DNA of 44,741 nucleotides, from the NCBI RefSeq assembly GCF_006345805.1, contig NW_021834895.1:1-44741 (forward strand), given 5' to 3'. Position numbers and translations under genes: made by a program. This DNA is from Octopus sinensis (Eukaryota). Shown piece by piece: positions 517 through 18,755 of this stretch (positions within the stretch are counted from its first letter, which is position 1; each line of letters opens with the position of its first letter). The notes below the pieces were generated by a model that had not been told where the DNA came from, made no database searches, and saw nothing but the letters and a program-made list of their open reading frames with translations.

Positions 517-598
517 GCTACAATCAAACAATATAAATAAAATATTAGATAAACGACATTCCCCATCATGCACCCTTGCTATATCCCAATTCCTGATC

Positions 599-2402
599 TT
601 GCAAAGCTTAAGAAACAAAAACCCCATCTACAAAGGGAAAGAATTCTGCATTATAGACAAACCCATTTCCAACAAACTAGGTATCGAGCACCTCAGTGAC
701 CCCACACTAAATGAAGAGGTTCACAACATCATACCCCACCAACTGGAATCCACCATCAACACCAGCTGGACCAACATTTGTCACCAAAGTAATCTCTCAA
801 AGAAGACTAGACTGAACTACACATCTAAAAGCACCACCGTTCCATCCTTCTATCATTTAATAAAAAGCCACAAACCCGGACCTAAGGTCAAAATCATACC
901 CTTAGTAACAGGAATTAACGGTCCTTTCAATAAGATCTCTTGGCTCCTCTCTAATCTCCTCAAGCTCTTAGTACACGCATTCCCCGGACACGTCAGCAGC
1001 ACCCACGAAATCTTCACAAGACTCAAATATATCGACCCCCTCCTTACTTAAAACTGACAAATCCCCTTTTAGTTTAGACGTTGTTTCCCTCTACACCTCT
1101 GTTCCCGCTCTCCCAGCCGTCGATATCCTCATAGGCCACATCATGTTCTTACTTCCCCCACATCTCCTTCCCCAACCTCCTTCTTAATCTCTTCCTCCCT
1201 CTCCTGCAACCTCCTCCTCTCCATCATTCCCCTTCATCTTCTCCCACTTCTCATTCCATCAATCTCCACCTCTTCCGCCTCACACCCACAGACATACGAG
1301 ACTTATTAACCATTATAGTTAGTAACGCCTATTTCCAGTATAACGGTGTGATTTACAAACAGACTTCCGGCCTACCTATGGGATTTAGCCTTTCAGGCCT
1401 GCTGGCCATCACGTACATGGATAAGCTAGAACACACAGCACTCAACACCTGCCGCTCGTGCATCTCCTTCTCCAGGTACTTTGATGACATCCTTATCATC
1501 AAGTCCTCCAGGGATGAGGCCATTATCATACACCTGACCTTCAATAATATCGACATAAACATCAAATTCAAGCGTGAACATCCAGTGGAATCCGGAACCC
1601 TCTCTCTACTCAACATTCAACTCAGGATGACAGAGGAAGACTCCATATTTACCAACTTCTACAGAAAACCTGCTAGCAGAAAACTTTTCGTCTAGTACCA
1701 ATCAGCCTTACCCACCATAGCCAAAGCCGCATACGTGAGAAACAAGATTGCACGTATAAACAACAATTGCAGCGAAGTGACCGACAAGCCGTCAACACCA
1801 AGCAGTTCCTCAGAGACCTAACCCTGAATGGCTACCCACCATCCTTAGCCAAACAACGGCGCCTAAAGAACATCAAGGCCAATAAACCCCGGAAGAACTC
1901 TCATACTCCCAATCCGACACTTGCCTTCCTAAAGCACCCACATTTGGATGACAGAACTACTGCAGCGATACAACATGCAGTCCGCGTGGAAGAACTTGAC
2001 ATACAGATAGTGCACACCGGCCCATCTCTGAGAAAAGCTCTGTCTACGAACAAAACCTTTCACTACTCCGAGGAGTGCACATTATCGAAGGGCCTCATCA
2101 ATGACCCTTAAATGTGCTAGAGAACCTATTTTGTATACGTGATCATCTGTGGCAAATGTGGCGCATCCTACATTGGAGGCACAGCAAGAAAACTGCATAT
2201 ACGTAGAAAAGAACATACGCAAGCAGACACTTGCGTGAAGAAACATGAACGGAAGTCCCAGACCCGGGAATTTACAGTGCACATCAGGGCAACACAATGC
2301 AGCAGGGATGACCTTAGAATCTCCGAGGCCATCCTCATACACAAAAGGAAACCAACCATCAACAACAGAAGAGAATTACAAGAAGCTAGTTGGTTGCTAT
2401 AG
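599..2402 (+). pseudogene. PLE reverse transcriptase + GIY-YIG endonuclease, disrupted by stops/frameshifts and a C/T-rich stretch at about 1150-1290
   Basis: ORFs 599-1051, 1348-1695 (QTSGLPMG, RYFDDI), 1767-2111 (LTLNGYP) and 2139-2402 (VYVIICGKCGASYIGGTARKLHIRRKEH, ISEAILIHKRKPTIN). Confidence 0.9.
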
Positions 2403-2469
2403 CAACAACTTCCCGCTCATGTCCACTCCACATACACTCACACACACGCACATCTGCAACATTCGTTAA

Positions 2470-2507
2470 TTTCTTGAGGCTGGGTTCATAACCCCGAAAT
2501 ACAGAAT
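2470..2507 (+). ncRNA. Degenerate minimal type-I hammerhead ribozyme in the PLE pLTR
   Basis: TTC-TTGAGGC-T-GGGTT-CAT-AACCC-C-GAAA-TACA-GAA. Stem II and GAAA are intact; about 4 substitutions from the CUGANGA/NUH consensus. The position downstream of the PLE ORF is as expected. Confidence 0.5.
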
Positions 2508-2620
2508 GCAAGGTAAATCTACATTCAAATATTTGTTTTCTTGTGATTTGCCTTGCTTTTACTTCGCATGTTCTGGCCTTATCCACGATCCTTTATACAA
2601 TACAAACACACACACACACG

Positions 2621-5310: not shown

Positions 5311-5488
5311 TACCACTTTCTGTAGTAGTAAAGATTGTTTGCCAACATAACATGGCAGTCCTGGTTTAGGTCAGATGCTGCTGTAATTTAGCCCCTGGAG
5401 ACATCGACTCCAACTGGCCATACGACACGATATGTGTCTTTATATTTTCGAGCAAGGGAATCTAGCACCCCAACTCAGCTCAAAACTA

Positions 5489-5533
5489 TCTGTGAATCAC
5501 GATTTCAGGATTATTTCTCTTCATCAGCACAGA
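5489..5533 (-). ncRNA. Minimal type-I hammerhead ribozyme (left arm)
   Basis: Minus strand: TCTGTG-CTGATGA-AGAG-AAATAA-TCCT-GAAA-TCGTGA-T-T-CACAGA. Perfect 6-bp stem I, intact core, near-palindromic stem III, one mismatch in stem II. Confidence 0.8.
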
Positions 5534-5698
5534 ATAATTGTTCAGCTAGAGGTGGCGCTGCCAAATTCCCGTTCAAAATAAATAGTTTTTAAAGTGACAA
5601 ATTATTTTCTAATTTATAGATCAGTGACTAGTTGTCACTTTGAAAAGTATATATTTCGAATGGGAATTTGGCAGCGCCACCTCTACCCGAACAATTAT

Positions 5699-5743
5699 TC
5701 TGTGCTGATGAAGGGAAATAACCCGAAAATCGCGATAGACAGA
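5699..5743 (+). ncRNA. Minimal type-I hammerhead ribozyme (right arm)
   Basis: TCTGTG-CTGATGA-AGGG-AAATAA-CCC-GAAAA-TCGCGAT-A-GACAGA. Palindromic ATCGCGAT stem III, AUA triplet, one mismatch in stem I. Confidence 0.75.
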
Positions 5744-6404
5744 TATTGTTTTGAGCTGGGTGGGGTTGCTAGATTCCCTTGTTCGAAAATATAAGGAAAC
5801 AGATTGTGTCGTATAGCCAGCTGGAGATGATGTCTTCTGGGGCTAAATTACAGCAGCATCCGTCCTAAACCAGGACTGCCATGTTATATTGGCAAACAAT
5901 CTTTACTACAAAGTACTGTTGCTGAATATCTCACGTTGTGAGATTTAAAAATAAAAATAACACTTTCTGTAGTGTTGATATATGTAAACAGGGTTTATGG
6001 TACCAAATCATATTCTTATAATGATTCTCTAAACTCAAAGATGGAATATCAAAACGATTCTCCCGTAAAAAATGAATAAAAACGAAAATAGCAATAAAAC
6101 CAATGAGAAAGAATGGAAAACATGATTGGGTTCTGAAGAAGAAACGAAGAATGCGTCAGCTTCAGAGAAAAAAGTAAAAGGTGACGCAAAAAACAAAGTC
6201 TGTTTTTATTTTCTTTTTGATAAAAGGCATCATGGGAGAATGGTAGTTGCGTTGTTTACTTTTTGCTTTATTCGATATTTTTGGATTCTGGATGTTGTCA
6301 AAAACTGTTTCTCTCCAATGGCTCAAGGAATAAATGTTTTAAGATGCATCCCGAGAATATTTCGAGAAAAAATGTGTTATGTAGAGAGAAAGCTGTATGT
6401 GTGT

Positions 6405-13949: not shown

Positions 13950-15274
13950 ATGAGTGAAACCGTTTTATTTCGACTTAAGGATCAGTCTCAGTCGTAACCA
14001 AGGGGAAGCGTTTTGGAACCGTGGAGGTTCGCTTCCCAACAGAGGAGCTTGCAAGGGCGAACGCCATTTCGCCCTTGCAAACTGAGAATTTGTTACTAGT
14101 TCCGACCCACCTCGGGCGAAGAGTAACAAAAATAAAAATCGACCTCGCCCCCCCCTGAGCTAGATATGTCATGGCTGGTGGCAGCTGTCCTCTATGATAT
14201 AGAGGACACTACCACCATTCTAGATGTCAGGAGAGTGAGGGCGAAAAACTGGTTGGGGATGGGAGTGCTGCTTCTTGCGCAAATTCAGCAAGAGAATATC
14301 AGTAAAGTCCCTGATTTCGTAAGTTTGCCGGACGGCACCAGGCTAAACGTTGCTGTCGAGGGGCGAAAGCCAAAATGTTTCCTCTGCAGCAGCGAAAGCC
14401 ACTTAAAGAGGGACTGTCCCATTCACAAAAAGAGGATGGAGGCTTTCAGCAAGAGGCAGCAGCAACAACAACAACAACAACACAAGCAACAACAACAACA
14501 ACAGAAACATCAAAAACAGCAAGAAACACCAAAGGCTGCCACACCACCAACACCATCACCAAGACGAACAACACCACCTCCAACAACAACAACCACCACC
14601 AAACCAACACCGACACCAGTACCTCGAAAATCAACTGCAGCAACACCAACAGCAACAGGAGCAGCGGCACCACCGATACCGGCGGAACCAAAAACCTTTC
14701 GTCCTGCTACTGAAGCAGACCCCTCAACCATTCCTTTGCCGGATGAAGAGATCTCGGATTGTGCGAGCTCTGATTCCAACAAAGGAGAGTGGAACATAGT
14801 ACCTCCAAAGAAGAAAAGGAGGAAAAAACAAAAAGATTTACAGGGGAAGCACGAACAAATAGTACTTCCAACATCAACAACAACATCAACAACAACACAC
14901 ATTCACAACAACAAACAACAACAACAACACTTTCGACACCACTACTGCCACTGCCACAGACACAAACAAACACAGACACAATTACAGAAACGATTACAGC
15001 GATAAATACAAAAAACCAAGAACTGGTTGAGTATTTGAAAAACAAAACAAGCACAAACATTACAGATTTCATAATACCTACACACAACACACCACCAGCA
15101 CACATTCTCACAATAAAAATAAACAAAACAGTTTACAACGAAATAAAACAAATATTCCCTAACGATGTGGGATCGTTAGGGAAAAGTTTCTCTAAGAAAC
15201 TTTATAAAAATATTGTAGAAGCACCCGTGCAAAAGCACAAGGGAGCCACCCCCACCACCAACAACAGTAAGTAG
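13950..15274 (+). pseudogene. LINE ORF1 (gag-like, zinc knuckle), frameshifted
   Basis: MSETVLFRLKD.../VVTKGKRFGTVEVRF.../MSWLVAA...VEGRKPKCFLCSSESHLKRDC (CX2CX4HX4C), polyQ and T/P-rich linker, WNIVPPKKKRRKK. Continues in the 14789-15274 frame. Confidence 0.8.
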
Positions 15275-15325
15275 AGCCTTTTTTTTTTTCTCCTTTTTTT
15301 TTTTTTTTTCTCTAACTTTTGAAAC

Positions 15326-18300
15326 ATGGCAAATCTTAGAATCGGTTGCTTGAATGTGAGAGGCCTCGGGTCACCTTGGAAACAGGGTCACCTGTTAAAC
15401 GACCTGAGGTTTCATGATGTGGATGTAGCAGCCATCAGTGAAACCAGGCTCTCCGACCCGCAGGAACTCGCAGCCCTTTTCGGCGGATACGAGATATTTC
15501 TATCTCCGTGTCGGCCGGGAGCGGGCGGTGGTGGTACTGCGGTGTTGTTTCGGAAGGGCCTGGACCTGAAAATAAGGACAGTCTTCTTGGATCCGGAAGG
15601 TAAGTTGGTGGTCCTCGACGTGGACGGTAGTGACGGCGGTGCTTTCAGACTGGCTGCCTACGCTCCGACAGGAGCAGGGCAGTCGGATTATTTCAAACGT
15701 CTGGAAGTTTTCCTGGGAACGTCACGCACTCTAGTACTAGTTGGGGATTGGAACGCTGTCTTAGACGAACGTTTCGATCGGGTGGGCAGGGGTGCGTCTG
15801 ATAGGAGAGGGGGAGGTGTGCAAGAGCCTCGCCAACCTACTCGGCCGCTTTCAGCTGTCGACAGGTTTCGACTAGACAACCCGAATGTGCCAATGTGGAC
15901 TTGGACAAACCGCATCGGGTCGTCTAGATCGTACTTAGATAGAGTGTTTTGTAGGCCAGCGGATAAGGACAGCGTAGGGTGTCCACAATTCCACCTAGTC
16001 GAATATACAGACCACAAATTAGTGATCTGTACGGTCGACTTTGATAGGCTACATAGACAGGGACCCGGCTACTGGAAGCTGAACGCGTCGTTAACGGCGT
16101 GCAAAGCTTACAGAGACCGGATTAGTTTACTAGTTAAGCGGGCGCTCACGGGGCAATCATCAACAACAACTGGTGGTTTGCCCTCAAGAGAGCAATTAGA
16201 GTAGAGTCGATTAGGTATAGTAAGACTCTAGCTATTGAACGTAGGAAGAGAGAGCGGGATTTAGTTAAGAAACTAGACGAGGCTCTTGACACTGGCATCG
16301 CGACCGACGTGTTGGCGGCAAGGTTGGCCCTCGACCAACACTTCGACGCCAAACACGAGGGCTGCGTTGTCAGAGCTAAGGCACGTTCGCTAAGCGGGGA
16401 GGGGACTAGAGCCGCTCGATGGGCCCGCGTGGCGGAGGCGAAGCGAGGCAACAGAGCAACCATTCGGTCTTTGGTGGACCAGAACGGGCGCGAGGTTACC
16501 CAACCGAAGCAGATGTGTACGGTGCTTCAGCGGCACTTTGCTCAACTGTTTGGGACGAGCGGTGGAACGGACACCAACGGTACAGACTTCGGTGTGTACC
16601 TGGACGGACTGCCGCAACTCTCGGACAGCGAGGCAGAGTGCTGCGAAGGACTGATATCTGCCTGGGAAGTACAGGAAGCGATGAAGAGTTGCACGAGAGG
16701 TAGATCGCCGGGTTTGGAGGTCTGCCCTACGAGCTTTACTTTTCAATGCCAGACTTGTTTGCGGACCTGTTGGCAAACGTCTACTGCAACTGGCAGCAAA
16801 ACGGGAGAATTCCTGCTTTTGTCTGTCGAGGGGTGGTGGCTTTGCTAAAGAAGGACCCAAACAAGGGGGACGTTATAGGGAATTTCCGGCCCATCACTCT
16901 GCTCAATGCAGAGTTGAAGATTTTGGCCAAGGTGCTAGCCAAGAGATTGGCGCTTGTCGTGGACAAGCTGGTCGGCAAGACGCAGACATGCGCCGTGCCG
17001 ACCAGGTCGATACACGACAACCTCCATCTCATGCGCTACATCATAGAGAGGGTGGGTAACGACGCTGGCGCGGGTGGGGCTTTGATCAACTTGGATCAGA
17101 GTAAAGCCTTCGATAGGGTCGACCATCGGTACCTGGCAGCTGTCCTCGAAGCAATCGGCTTCGGTCCAGTCTTCCGCGGGTGGATCGCTGCTTTATACAG
17201 CAACATCTGCTCGGTGATACGGGTGAACGGTCACCTTTCGGAACCGTTCGACATCTCGCGTTCGGTCCGCCAAGGATGCCCTCTCTCCTCCCTCTTGTAC
17301 ATTTTGACTCTCGAGCCATTGCTGCGCAAGTTGGAGGCTTTGAGGGGTATCCCGCGCGATCTAGGAGGCGGAAACAGCGTGTCTGCTTATGCCGACGACG
17401 TCACCGTGGTGGTGTCGAGCCACAGGCACATTGGCCTGATTGGCGAGACGCTAAACCAGTACGAAGCGGTGACAGGAGCAAAGATTAACGCGGAAAAGTC
17501 TGTGGGCTTGCAACTGGGCACCTGGAGAGGCAAGCCCATGCCGTCTAACAGCGTCGTAGGGCGCTGGACAAACGGACCCGTTAAACTGCTCGGGGTCTGG
17601 TTCGGTCCGGACCTCCAGGTGGATAAGAACTGGGAAGAGGTGACGAGCAGGGTGGCACGTCTCACCCAGAAATGGGCCGAGAGGAAGCTGTCCCTGAAAG
17701 GTCGAGCGGAGGTGGCGAATGCGTACATCGCATCCGTCATTTATTACCGCTTGACCGTCGTCCCTTGTCCCGACCGCTGGTTGGCCAAGCTGGTACGTCT
17801 GCTCTTCGACTTTTTGTGGAAGGGTCAGGTGCCACTGGTCAGGCGGTCCATCTGCTGTCAACGACCGCTGAACGGAGGCCTTGGAATGCCGTGGTTGCTG
17901 TTGCGCAGACATGCGCTCAGGCTGCGGCATCTCAAGCGCTTCCTAGACGGTGAACAGGTGTGGTCGTCTTTTGTCAGACGCGATTTTCCGCAGCTCGTCT
18001 CTTTGACGGATCTGCAGACCTGGATCAAACGTAGACCGAGAAAGGGCGCTTGGCACCTCGAGTGCCGTCAAGCTCTCTCCGCCCTCCGCCGGGCGGGCAA
18101 TGCGGTCGGTTACAGCTCCACTCTAGCGTTCTATAGAGGGCTAGTGGAGGAAAAATGCGACGACGTTCTCGGGGAAACTCTAGGCGTTGAAGACGACGAA
18201 CTGAGCGGTCTGTTCGGGAGGACTTTCGGGCCGGGGCCGATGGATAATTTCCAGAGGTCTCTCGCCTGGCAGTGCTACCGAGGGGCTCTGCCTGTTCGAG

Positions 18301-18755
18301 ATAAACTCTACCGGCACGGAAGTGCCGTCAGCCGGGCCTGCCCGAGGTGTTGCCAGGACGACGAAACCGTTCTGCACGCACTCGTCCAGTGCCCGAGTAT
18401 TGCTGAAATATGGGTTTATGTCGAACAGCTACTGTCACGTGTTGGACGGATCCGACTATCGGCCGAATCCATAGTGAAGATTGCCCCGCCGACCTCCTTT
18501 AACAAGGAGGGCGAGGCCGTTTTCTTGTGCCTAGTGGCTGTGGCGAAAGAGGTCGTGTGGTGGACTCGTTTGAAAGGGCTAAAGACAGACACTTTCCTCT
18601 TTGGTCAAGGCCTCATCAACTTTTTCAAGTTTCACTTGAAAAGGAAGATGAGGTTAGAGAGGAAAGTGCTGTCCGATAGCAAGTTTTATGAAAGGTGGGT
18701 GAATTGTGCGAGACTGGCCTGTATAAATGGACCAGTTCTCAGGTTTCGCCTGTGA
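15326..18755 (+). pseudogene. LINE ORF2: APE endonuclease, reverse transcriptase and C-terminal Cys motif; about 4 single-base frameshifts
   Basis: CLNVRGL, ISETRL, GDWN, LDRVF, TDHKLV, YWKLN; NFRPITLLN, LDQSKAFDRVDH, VRQGCPLS, YADD, GGLG; CPRCCQDDETVLHALVQC. A 669-aa uninterrupted ORF spans 16746-18755. Confidence 0.95.

What the first reader, a model, noticed from the sequence alone, without database searches (positions are those of the whole stretch)
5314..5973. Palindrome of about 585 bp with two oppositely oriented hammerhead ribozymes, a one-sided tail and a 13-bp TSD
Seen: inverted arms of about 277 bp, each with CTGATGA...GAAA and a palindromic stem III. About 50 nt of unpaired tail follows the right arm. 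CACTTTCTGTAGT lies directly outside both ends. Merging the arms gives a canonical consensus, CTGTG-CTGATGA-AGGG-AAATAA-CCCT-GAAA-TCGCGAT-A-CACAG. Established: Penelope-like elements carry minimal hammerheads in their pLTRs and often have an inverted 5' pLTR and a 3' tail. Inference: this looks like a MITE but is an ORF-less, ribozyme-bearing PLE derivative.
Basis: partly seen in the sequence, partly recalled or inferred. Interest (0 to 1): 0.78.

Follow-up and report, generated by a model that had tools for sequence, protein, structure and literature searches.

The report
Octopus retrozyme inserted Penelope-style
This 585-base palindrome is one old copy of a 353-base repeat that carries a hammerhead ribozyme motif and encodes no protein, and the family's mirror-image insertions with two fixed ends suggest it was likely pasted in by a Penelope retrotransposon enzyme, which supports a link so far argued from co-occurrence and sequence likeness.

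Summary
Observation confirmed: inverted arms (243/274 identical), 51-nt one-sided tail, 13-bp TSD. The palindrome is not the unit. The unit is a 353-nt, ORF-less, circularly continuous monomer with one type I hammerhead. It also occurs in head-to-tail arrays, so it is a non-LTR retrozyme. In a tail-anchored sample, 76/89 insertions have an inverted 5' arm. The two outer ends are fixed about 55 nt apart, the centres vary, and TSDs are mostly 11-16 bp. This is the Penelope (PLE) two-start-site signature, not a MITE. Three sister families (351-357 nt, 59-71% identical) keep the hammerhead core and the fold through compensatory changes. Single copies decay neutrally; this copy's right hammerhead has a core G12A change. 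No PLE ORF was found joined to the unit, and 100 PLE-ORF loci showed no matching pLTR, so the mobiliser is unidentified. Contigs from two related organisms also appear filled at this site; no empty site was seen. Cleavage and circular RNA are untested. The scan noted similar PLE mini-palindromes before, in a shark. Verdict: new member of a known kind, with useful mechanistic evidence.

The parts
5314..5326 (+). Left target-site duplication (13 bp); its last 2 nt also match the start of the inverted arm
5327..5600 (-). Inverted arm, unit 304 back to 29, about 92% identical to the family majority; starts at the family's fixed inner end (unit 301-313)
5490..5532 (-). Left type I hammerhead: core intact, U at position 17, stem II weakened; predicted cut 5495|5494
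5601..5603 (.). 3-nt junction insert at the palindrome centre
5604..5953 (+). Direct arm: near-complete 353-nt retrozyme monomer (unit 1-350), 95.4% identical to the family majority
5700..5742 (+). Right type I hammerhead with core G12-to-A change (5726) and stem I mismatch (5738); predicted cut 5737|5738; predicted inactive
5910..5960 (+). One-sided tail: unit 307-350 plus 7 A-rich nt; the stretch between the family's two fixed ends
5961..5973 (+). Right target-site duplication (13 bp)

Best explanation
This is a decayed copy of a 353-nt, ORF-less, hammerhead-bearing tandem repeat (a non-LTR retrozyme), likely inserted in trans by a Penelope-like RT/GIY-YIG protein priming from both strands of the target. 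Shown: the unit, arrays, fixed two-end anatomy, TSDs, and cross-family conservation of core and fold. Inferred steps: (1) Tandem copies are transcribed, and two hammerheads pair through the palindromic stem III and cut at unit 134|135. (2) A long rod holds the monomer's ends together for ligation into a circle; uncut multimers could also serve as template. (3) A PLE dimer nicks AT-rich DNA on both strands about 12-14 nt apart. (4) One 3' end primes at unit ~305-308 and the other at ~8-11; the stretch between is the tail. (5) The two cDNAs stop near the same place on one template and are joined head-to-head by microhomology or short inserts.
For: Unit and arrays: period 353 in L014 (3.5 units) and L015; 337 exact matches to a 26-nt tail pattern and 441 to a 19-nt hammerhead motif, reversed controls 0. 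Anatomy: 76/89 distinct tail-anchored loci have an adjacent inverted arm; 60 have outer ends at unit ~292-325 (mostly 301-313) and 2-18. TSD score of 9 or more in 41/58 against 7/682 mismatched controls; lengths 9-16, mode 12-14. Template longer than a cut monomer: 16 tail arms and 26 inverted arms of 58 pass the predicted cut site, with single arms up to 574-653 nt. One template: the inverted arm reaches 0-45 nt further 5' than the tail arm in 26/58 (10.5 expected, 0/10000 permutations), and rare variants are shared within an insertion at 2.98 against 0.83 per kb between insertions. Ribozyme and fold: four families keep CTGAYGA and GAAA with four different palindromic stem IIIs and compensatory stems I; 29 of 72 consensus pairs show double changes against 6-8 in slid controls; circular fold z -6.8 to -12. 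Literature: PMC11167929 shows a PLE protein nicking and extending both strands from two RNA start sites that bound the tail. In-genome control: an RT + GIY-YIG PLE family makes the same kind of two-ended insertions, 10/30 loci.
Against: No mobilising PLE identified: no PLE ORF hit in 198 family-A loci (query proteins were one Penelope-type family only), and no pLTR homology in 100 PLE-ORF loci. The youngest PLE found has an ~80-nt tail and (TA)n targets, unlike this family. Within family A the core is no better conserved than the rest (0.951 against 0.945; 61/102 intact). The cluster of 5' ends near the cut site is weak (7/58 at 125-138). Arm lengths are uncorrelated overall (rho 0.02; 0.39 among the 46 sub-monomer cases). 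Only 13% of variants are shared between arms. In PMC11167929 hammerhead cleavage was not needed for insertion in vitro.
Confidence: 0.78

Rival explanations
1. The unit is simply the pLTR of an autonomous PLE that I did not find, and the copies are 5'-truncated stumps of it rather than a self-standing retrozyme.
For: Truncated PLEs give the same palindrome-plus-tail form (PMC8557442; PMC3846280). Xenopus retrozymes match pLTRs (bioRxiv 10.64898/2026.07.22.740005). Only 100 PLE-ORF loci of several thousand candidates were examined.
Against: Long arms run on into the previous monomer rather than into an ORF. All four families close into 351-357-nt circles with one shared fold. No ORF was found beside the family copies checked.
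Confidence: 0.12
2. Same element, but the mirror arm forms by self-priming fold-back of one cDNA, not by joining two independently primed cDNAs.
For: The one-sided 0-45-nt offset fits a hairpin loop, and the arms share rare variants. Self-priming was proposed for PLE palindromes in PMC3846280.
Against: The tail lies outside the inverted arm in most copies, so a second priming event is still needed. 33/58 junctions carry inserted bases, as in end joining. Both strands are extended in vitro (PMC11167929).
Confidence: 0.25
3. A MITE or foldback DNA transposon whose inverted repeats happen to contain a hammerhead-like motif.
For: Long inverted repeats, a TSD and no ORF in this one copy.
Against: Asymmetric ends, variable centres and lengths, variable TSD length, head-to-tail arrays, and hammerhead covariation across families.
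Confidence: 0.01
4. A SINE-like RNA mobilised by an APE-type LINE, with inversions made by L1-style twin priming.
For: TSDs of 11-16 bp in AT-rich DNA (75% AT); LINEs are present in the window.
Against: In L1 twin priming (recalled) the second primer lands at variable internal sites and the two parts do not overlap. Here the second end is fixed and the arms duplicate each other; there is no poly(A) or simple-repeat 3' end.
Confidence: 0.06

Closest known systems
Animal non-LTR retrozymes (Cervera and de la Pena 2020, PMC7229834; Li et al. 2026 preprint 10.64898/2026.07.22.740005)
   Same: 170-400-nt ORF-less tandem unit, one type I hammerhead per unit, low GC, large TSDs; 353-nt monomers are named there for mussel and axolotl; PLE mobilisation proposed.
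   Different: Here most copies are truncated palindromes with two fixed ends. Term searches of those two texts found no description of inverted arms or tails. No pLTR homologue was found here. Expression and circles are not shown.
EN+ Penelope-like elements: inverted pLTR, tail, minimal hammerhead (PMC8557442, PMC3846280, PMC4209133, PMC11167929)
   Same: 5' truncation, adjacent inverted 5' copy, one-sided tail, partial tandems, TSD, hammerhead with a weak stem III. PMC4209133 already notes opposite-strand hammerhead pairs 100-700 bp apart in Schistosoma.
   Different: No RT or GIY-YIG ORF; tail about 55 nt (30-40 reported); TSD 11-16 bp (8-10 in Adineta); the unit closes into a ~350-nt circle.
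Non-autonomous Chlamys PLEs such as MRC1 (PMC8557442)
   Same: ORF-less, with head-to-tail multicopy insertions.
   Different: Those resemble their autonomous partner's 3' end, and the N-terminal-EN clade is reported to lack canonical hammerheads.

Membership tests
Non-LTR retrozyme | Short (170-400 nt) ORF-less unit in head-to-tail repeats | tested here: met
   353-nt period, up to 3.5 units
Non-LTR retrozyme | One type I hammerhead per unit, with consecutive units carrying it | tested here: met
   Family majority core intact; successive exact motifs 331-355 nt apart; covariation across families
Non-LTR retrozyme | TSD longer than 4 bp; no LTR | tested here: met
   41/58 TSDs, mostly 11-16 bp; PBS and PPT not searched for
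Non-LTR retrozyme | Expressed as linear and circular monomer RNA | tested here: inconclusive
   RNA-seq reads of a related organism match, mostly as read-through, with no end pile-up; library type cannot show circles
Non-LTR retrozyme | Self-cleavage | not testable with these tools
   Needs an assay
PLE-type insertion | 5' truncation, inverted 5' arm, one-sided tail between two fixed ends | tested here: met
   76/89 inverted; 60 with both canonical ends
Autonomous EN+ PLE | RT and GIY-YIG ORF | tested here: not met
   No tblastn hit in 198 loci
pLTR-derived non-autonomous PLE | Sequence shared with an autonomous PLE's terminal repeat | tested here: inconclusive
   None in 100 PLE-ORF loci; nearby hits were separate insertions; sampling is partial
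MITE | Symmetric fixed TIR ends and constant short TSD | tested here: not met

The most novel reading that the evidence does not exclude
The genome hosts a long-lived lineage of viroid-like ~350-nt circular RNAs (at least four families) that are recognised by a PLE protein through shape rather than pLTR homology, and each palindromic insertion records two RT subunits copying one rolling circle from two fixed start sites. The family would then be a minimal natural substrate for the unresolved PLE integration mechanism.
Probability: 0.35. Interest if true: 0.7.

Novelty: new member of a known kind. Interest (0 to 1): 0.46.

Why it matters
Which enzyme moves animal retrozymes has been argued from shared hammerheads, co-occurrence and pLTR similarity. 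Here the insertions themselves carry the PLE two-start-site footprint, in thousands of candidate fragments across four families. The mapped ends, TSD size and junction offsets give concrete predictions for how PLE inverted structures form, on a 353-nt template that is easy to assay. For annotation, such elements are easily misfiled as MITEs. The single copy in the window is probably dead and of no special function.

Tried and rejected
Rfam: no match at gathering threshold. Partner search: the window's own PLE (518-2600) and 49 related RT loci have different terminal repeats; short BLAST hits in L204, L208 and L209 were chance or unrelated, and those in L210, L255 and L265 were separate sister-family insertions. 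The 260-nt stretch beside L013 is single-copy, not a partner. L113 is a local duplication, not a longer element. The young GIY-YIG family (L349) has the same 206-nt spacing from hammerhead to inner end but no sequence match, a longer tail and (TA)n targets, so it was not accepted. A recalled Pfam accession was not in the library. RNA: no RNA holder listed. Raw RNA-seq reads of organism B (1538-2030 laid per run) were equal in both directions, 64-72% ran into unlike sequence, and none piled up at the cut site; the 'goes back 353' joint also exists in genomic arms and is no evidence of circles. Empty site: contigs of organisms B and D (about 8% diverged flank) run through into the element's first 26 nt, so no empty site was seen; organism C is near-identical and organism E gave no flank cover. 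The 5'-end clusters at unit 125-138 and 183-191 were noted but not tested statistically; the second lies near the foot of the predicted rod.

Full report
Observation. The window holds inverted arms at 5327-5600 and 5632-5907 (243/274 identical), an unpaired 51-nt tail to 5960, and the 13-mer CACTTTCTGTAGT only at 5314-5326 and 5961-5973. Both arms carry CTGATGA. The genome G000 has 2.72 Gb with about 30 very large contigs. I take it to be an octopus from size and repeat landscape; this is recalled and was not tested.

The unit. Searching G000 showed that the repeated unit is not the palindrome but a 353-nt monomer (window 5604-5953) that also occurs head-to-tail, for example 3.5 units in L014. 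The first look gave 3361 candidates, which is not a copy number. Exact patterns gave 337 tail matches and 441 hammerhead matches, with reversed controls at 0. A majority sequence built in a script has an intact type I hammerhead with a 3-bp stem II and a palindromic stem III, and a predicted cut at unit 134|135. As a circle it folds at -118.7 kcal/mol against -78.7 +/- 4.6 for 60 shuffles, with a long rod that has the hammerhead at its tip.

Insertion anatomy. Of the 337 tail matches, 100 were listed (contigs C1-C7). I analysed 90 of them (89 distinct): 76 have an adjacent inverted arm, 2 a direct upstream piece and 11 neither. In 60, one arm ends at unit ~292-325 (mostly 301-313) and the other at 2-18. 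Two duplicates were dropped, leaving 58. A TSD scored 9 or more in 41/58 against 7/682 mismatched pairs; lengths were 9-16, mode 12-14, and 75% AT. Centres vary: 33/58 have inserted bases and the rest 0-6 nt of microhomology. The inverted arm reaches 0-45 nt further 5' than the tail arm in 26/58 (10.5 expected, 0/10000), with no excess the other way (7 against 9.1). Arms of one insertion share rare variants 3.6 times more often than arms of different insertions, though only 13% of variants are shared. By length, 16 tail arms and 26 inverted arms pass the predicted cut site, and arms reach 574-653 nt, so templates were uncut multimers or circles.

Sister families. Weak hits near PLE loci led to families B, C and D (1653, 3254 and 3287 first-look candidates). 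They are 351-357 nt, 59-71% identical, collinear around the whole circle, with two fixed ends and circular-fold z-scores of -6.8 to -12. The core CTGAYGA and GAAA are invariant, while stem III is a different palindrome in each family (ATCGCGAT, ACTAGT, ACATATGT, ACCCGGGT) and stem I changes compensatorily. Of 72 consensus pairs, 52 pair in all four families and 29 show double changes, against 8-15 and 6-8 in slid controls (the structure was derived from these same sequences, which favours it). So the source RNAs appear to have been under selection for the ribozyme and fold. Individual family-A copies were not: core identity 0.951 against 0.945 elsewhere, and 61/102 cores intact.

This copy. 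The right arm is 95.4% and the left about 92% identical to the family majority. The right hammerhead has G12-to-A and a stem I mismatch; the left keeps the core with weakened stems. Contigs from organisms B and D, about 8% diverged in the flank, continue into the element's first 26 nt, so the insertion looks old and shared; no empty site was seen.

Partner. No PLE ORF was found in 198 loci held (queries: the window's decayed PLE), nor joined to families B-D. A four-family profile against 100 loci taken for PLE RT or GIY-YIG matches found only separate retrozyme insertions; these are a small part of 2083 and 5029 candidates. A young RT + GIY-YIG family (781-aa open frame) has its own hammerhead and makes the same two-ended palindromes in 10/30 loci, but with an ~80-nt tail and (TA)n targets. 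It is a control for the anatomy, not a shown partner.

Mechanism. See Best explanation. The anatomy is shown. Cleavage, circularisation, the identity of the enzyme and the joining step are inferred.

Literature seen. PMC11167929 (parts 1-2 of 4): a PLE protein nicks and extends both strands, starts at two internal RNA sites that bound the tail, is a predicted dimer, and does not need hammerhead cleavage in vitro. PMC4209133 (part 1 of 4): minimal and dimeric hammerheads in PLEs, with opposite-strand pairs 100-700 bp apart. PMC7229834 (passages): retrozymes as 170-400-nt circRNAs with larger TSDs, PLEs a candidate mobiliser. bioRxiv 10.64898/2026.07.22.740005 (parts 1-3 of 5, plus a term search): co-occurrence and pLTR homology in vertebrates; only 1 of 9 dimers cleaved. 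PMC8557442, PMC3846280 and PMC8969392 (passages): inverted copy, tail, TSDs of 8-10 bp, self-priming proposal. Eight library searches listed no octopus retrozyme and no report of the two-end signature on retrozymes. Supplements, Repbase and Dfam were not seen and may hold these families.

Verdict. Interest 0.46.

Noticed in passing
window 518-2600 (+): Decayed Penelope-type PLE: RT (Pfam E 1.7e-8), GIY-YIG (E 0.0035) and a degenerate hammerhead-like motif at about 2472-2505; unrelated in sequence to the retrozyme.
   Followed up: partly
window 14136-18755 (+): LINE with a zinc-knuckle-like ORF1, APE endonuclease, RT and zf-RVT; 683-aa frame still open.
   Followed up: no
L349 / L369 (G000:C1:207473559-207479800): Young 5.9-kb tandem PLE (Neptune-type by recalled motifs, no tree built) with a 781-aa RT/GIY-YIG frame, an extra upstream 479-aa frame of no clear Pfam family, a long repeat-rich 3' region and (TA)n targeting; PLEs are usually described with one ORF.
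   Followed up: partly
L013 1854-3184: Seven or more direct 165-bp repeats of unit 147-307 (no hammerhead, ending at the inner fixed end) upstream of a full monomer: a satellite-like derivative.
   Followed up: no
L354 4954-5276; L345 44-422: Further retrozyme-like copies matching the four-family profile; L354 has another palindromic stem III (ACTCGAGT), suggesting more families.
   Followed up: no
L217, L222, L226, L253, L266: Other PLE families in the genome carry their own distinct minimal hammerheads downstream of the ORF.
   Followed up: no
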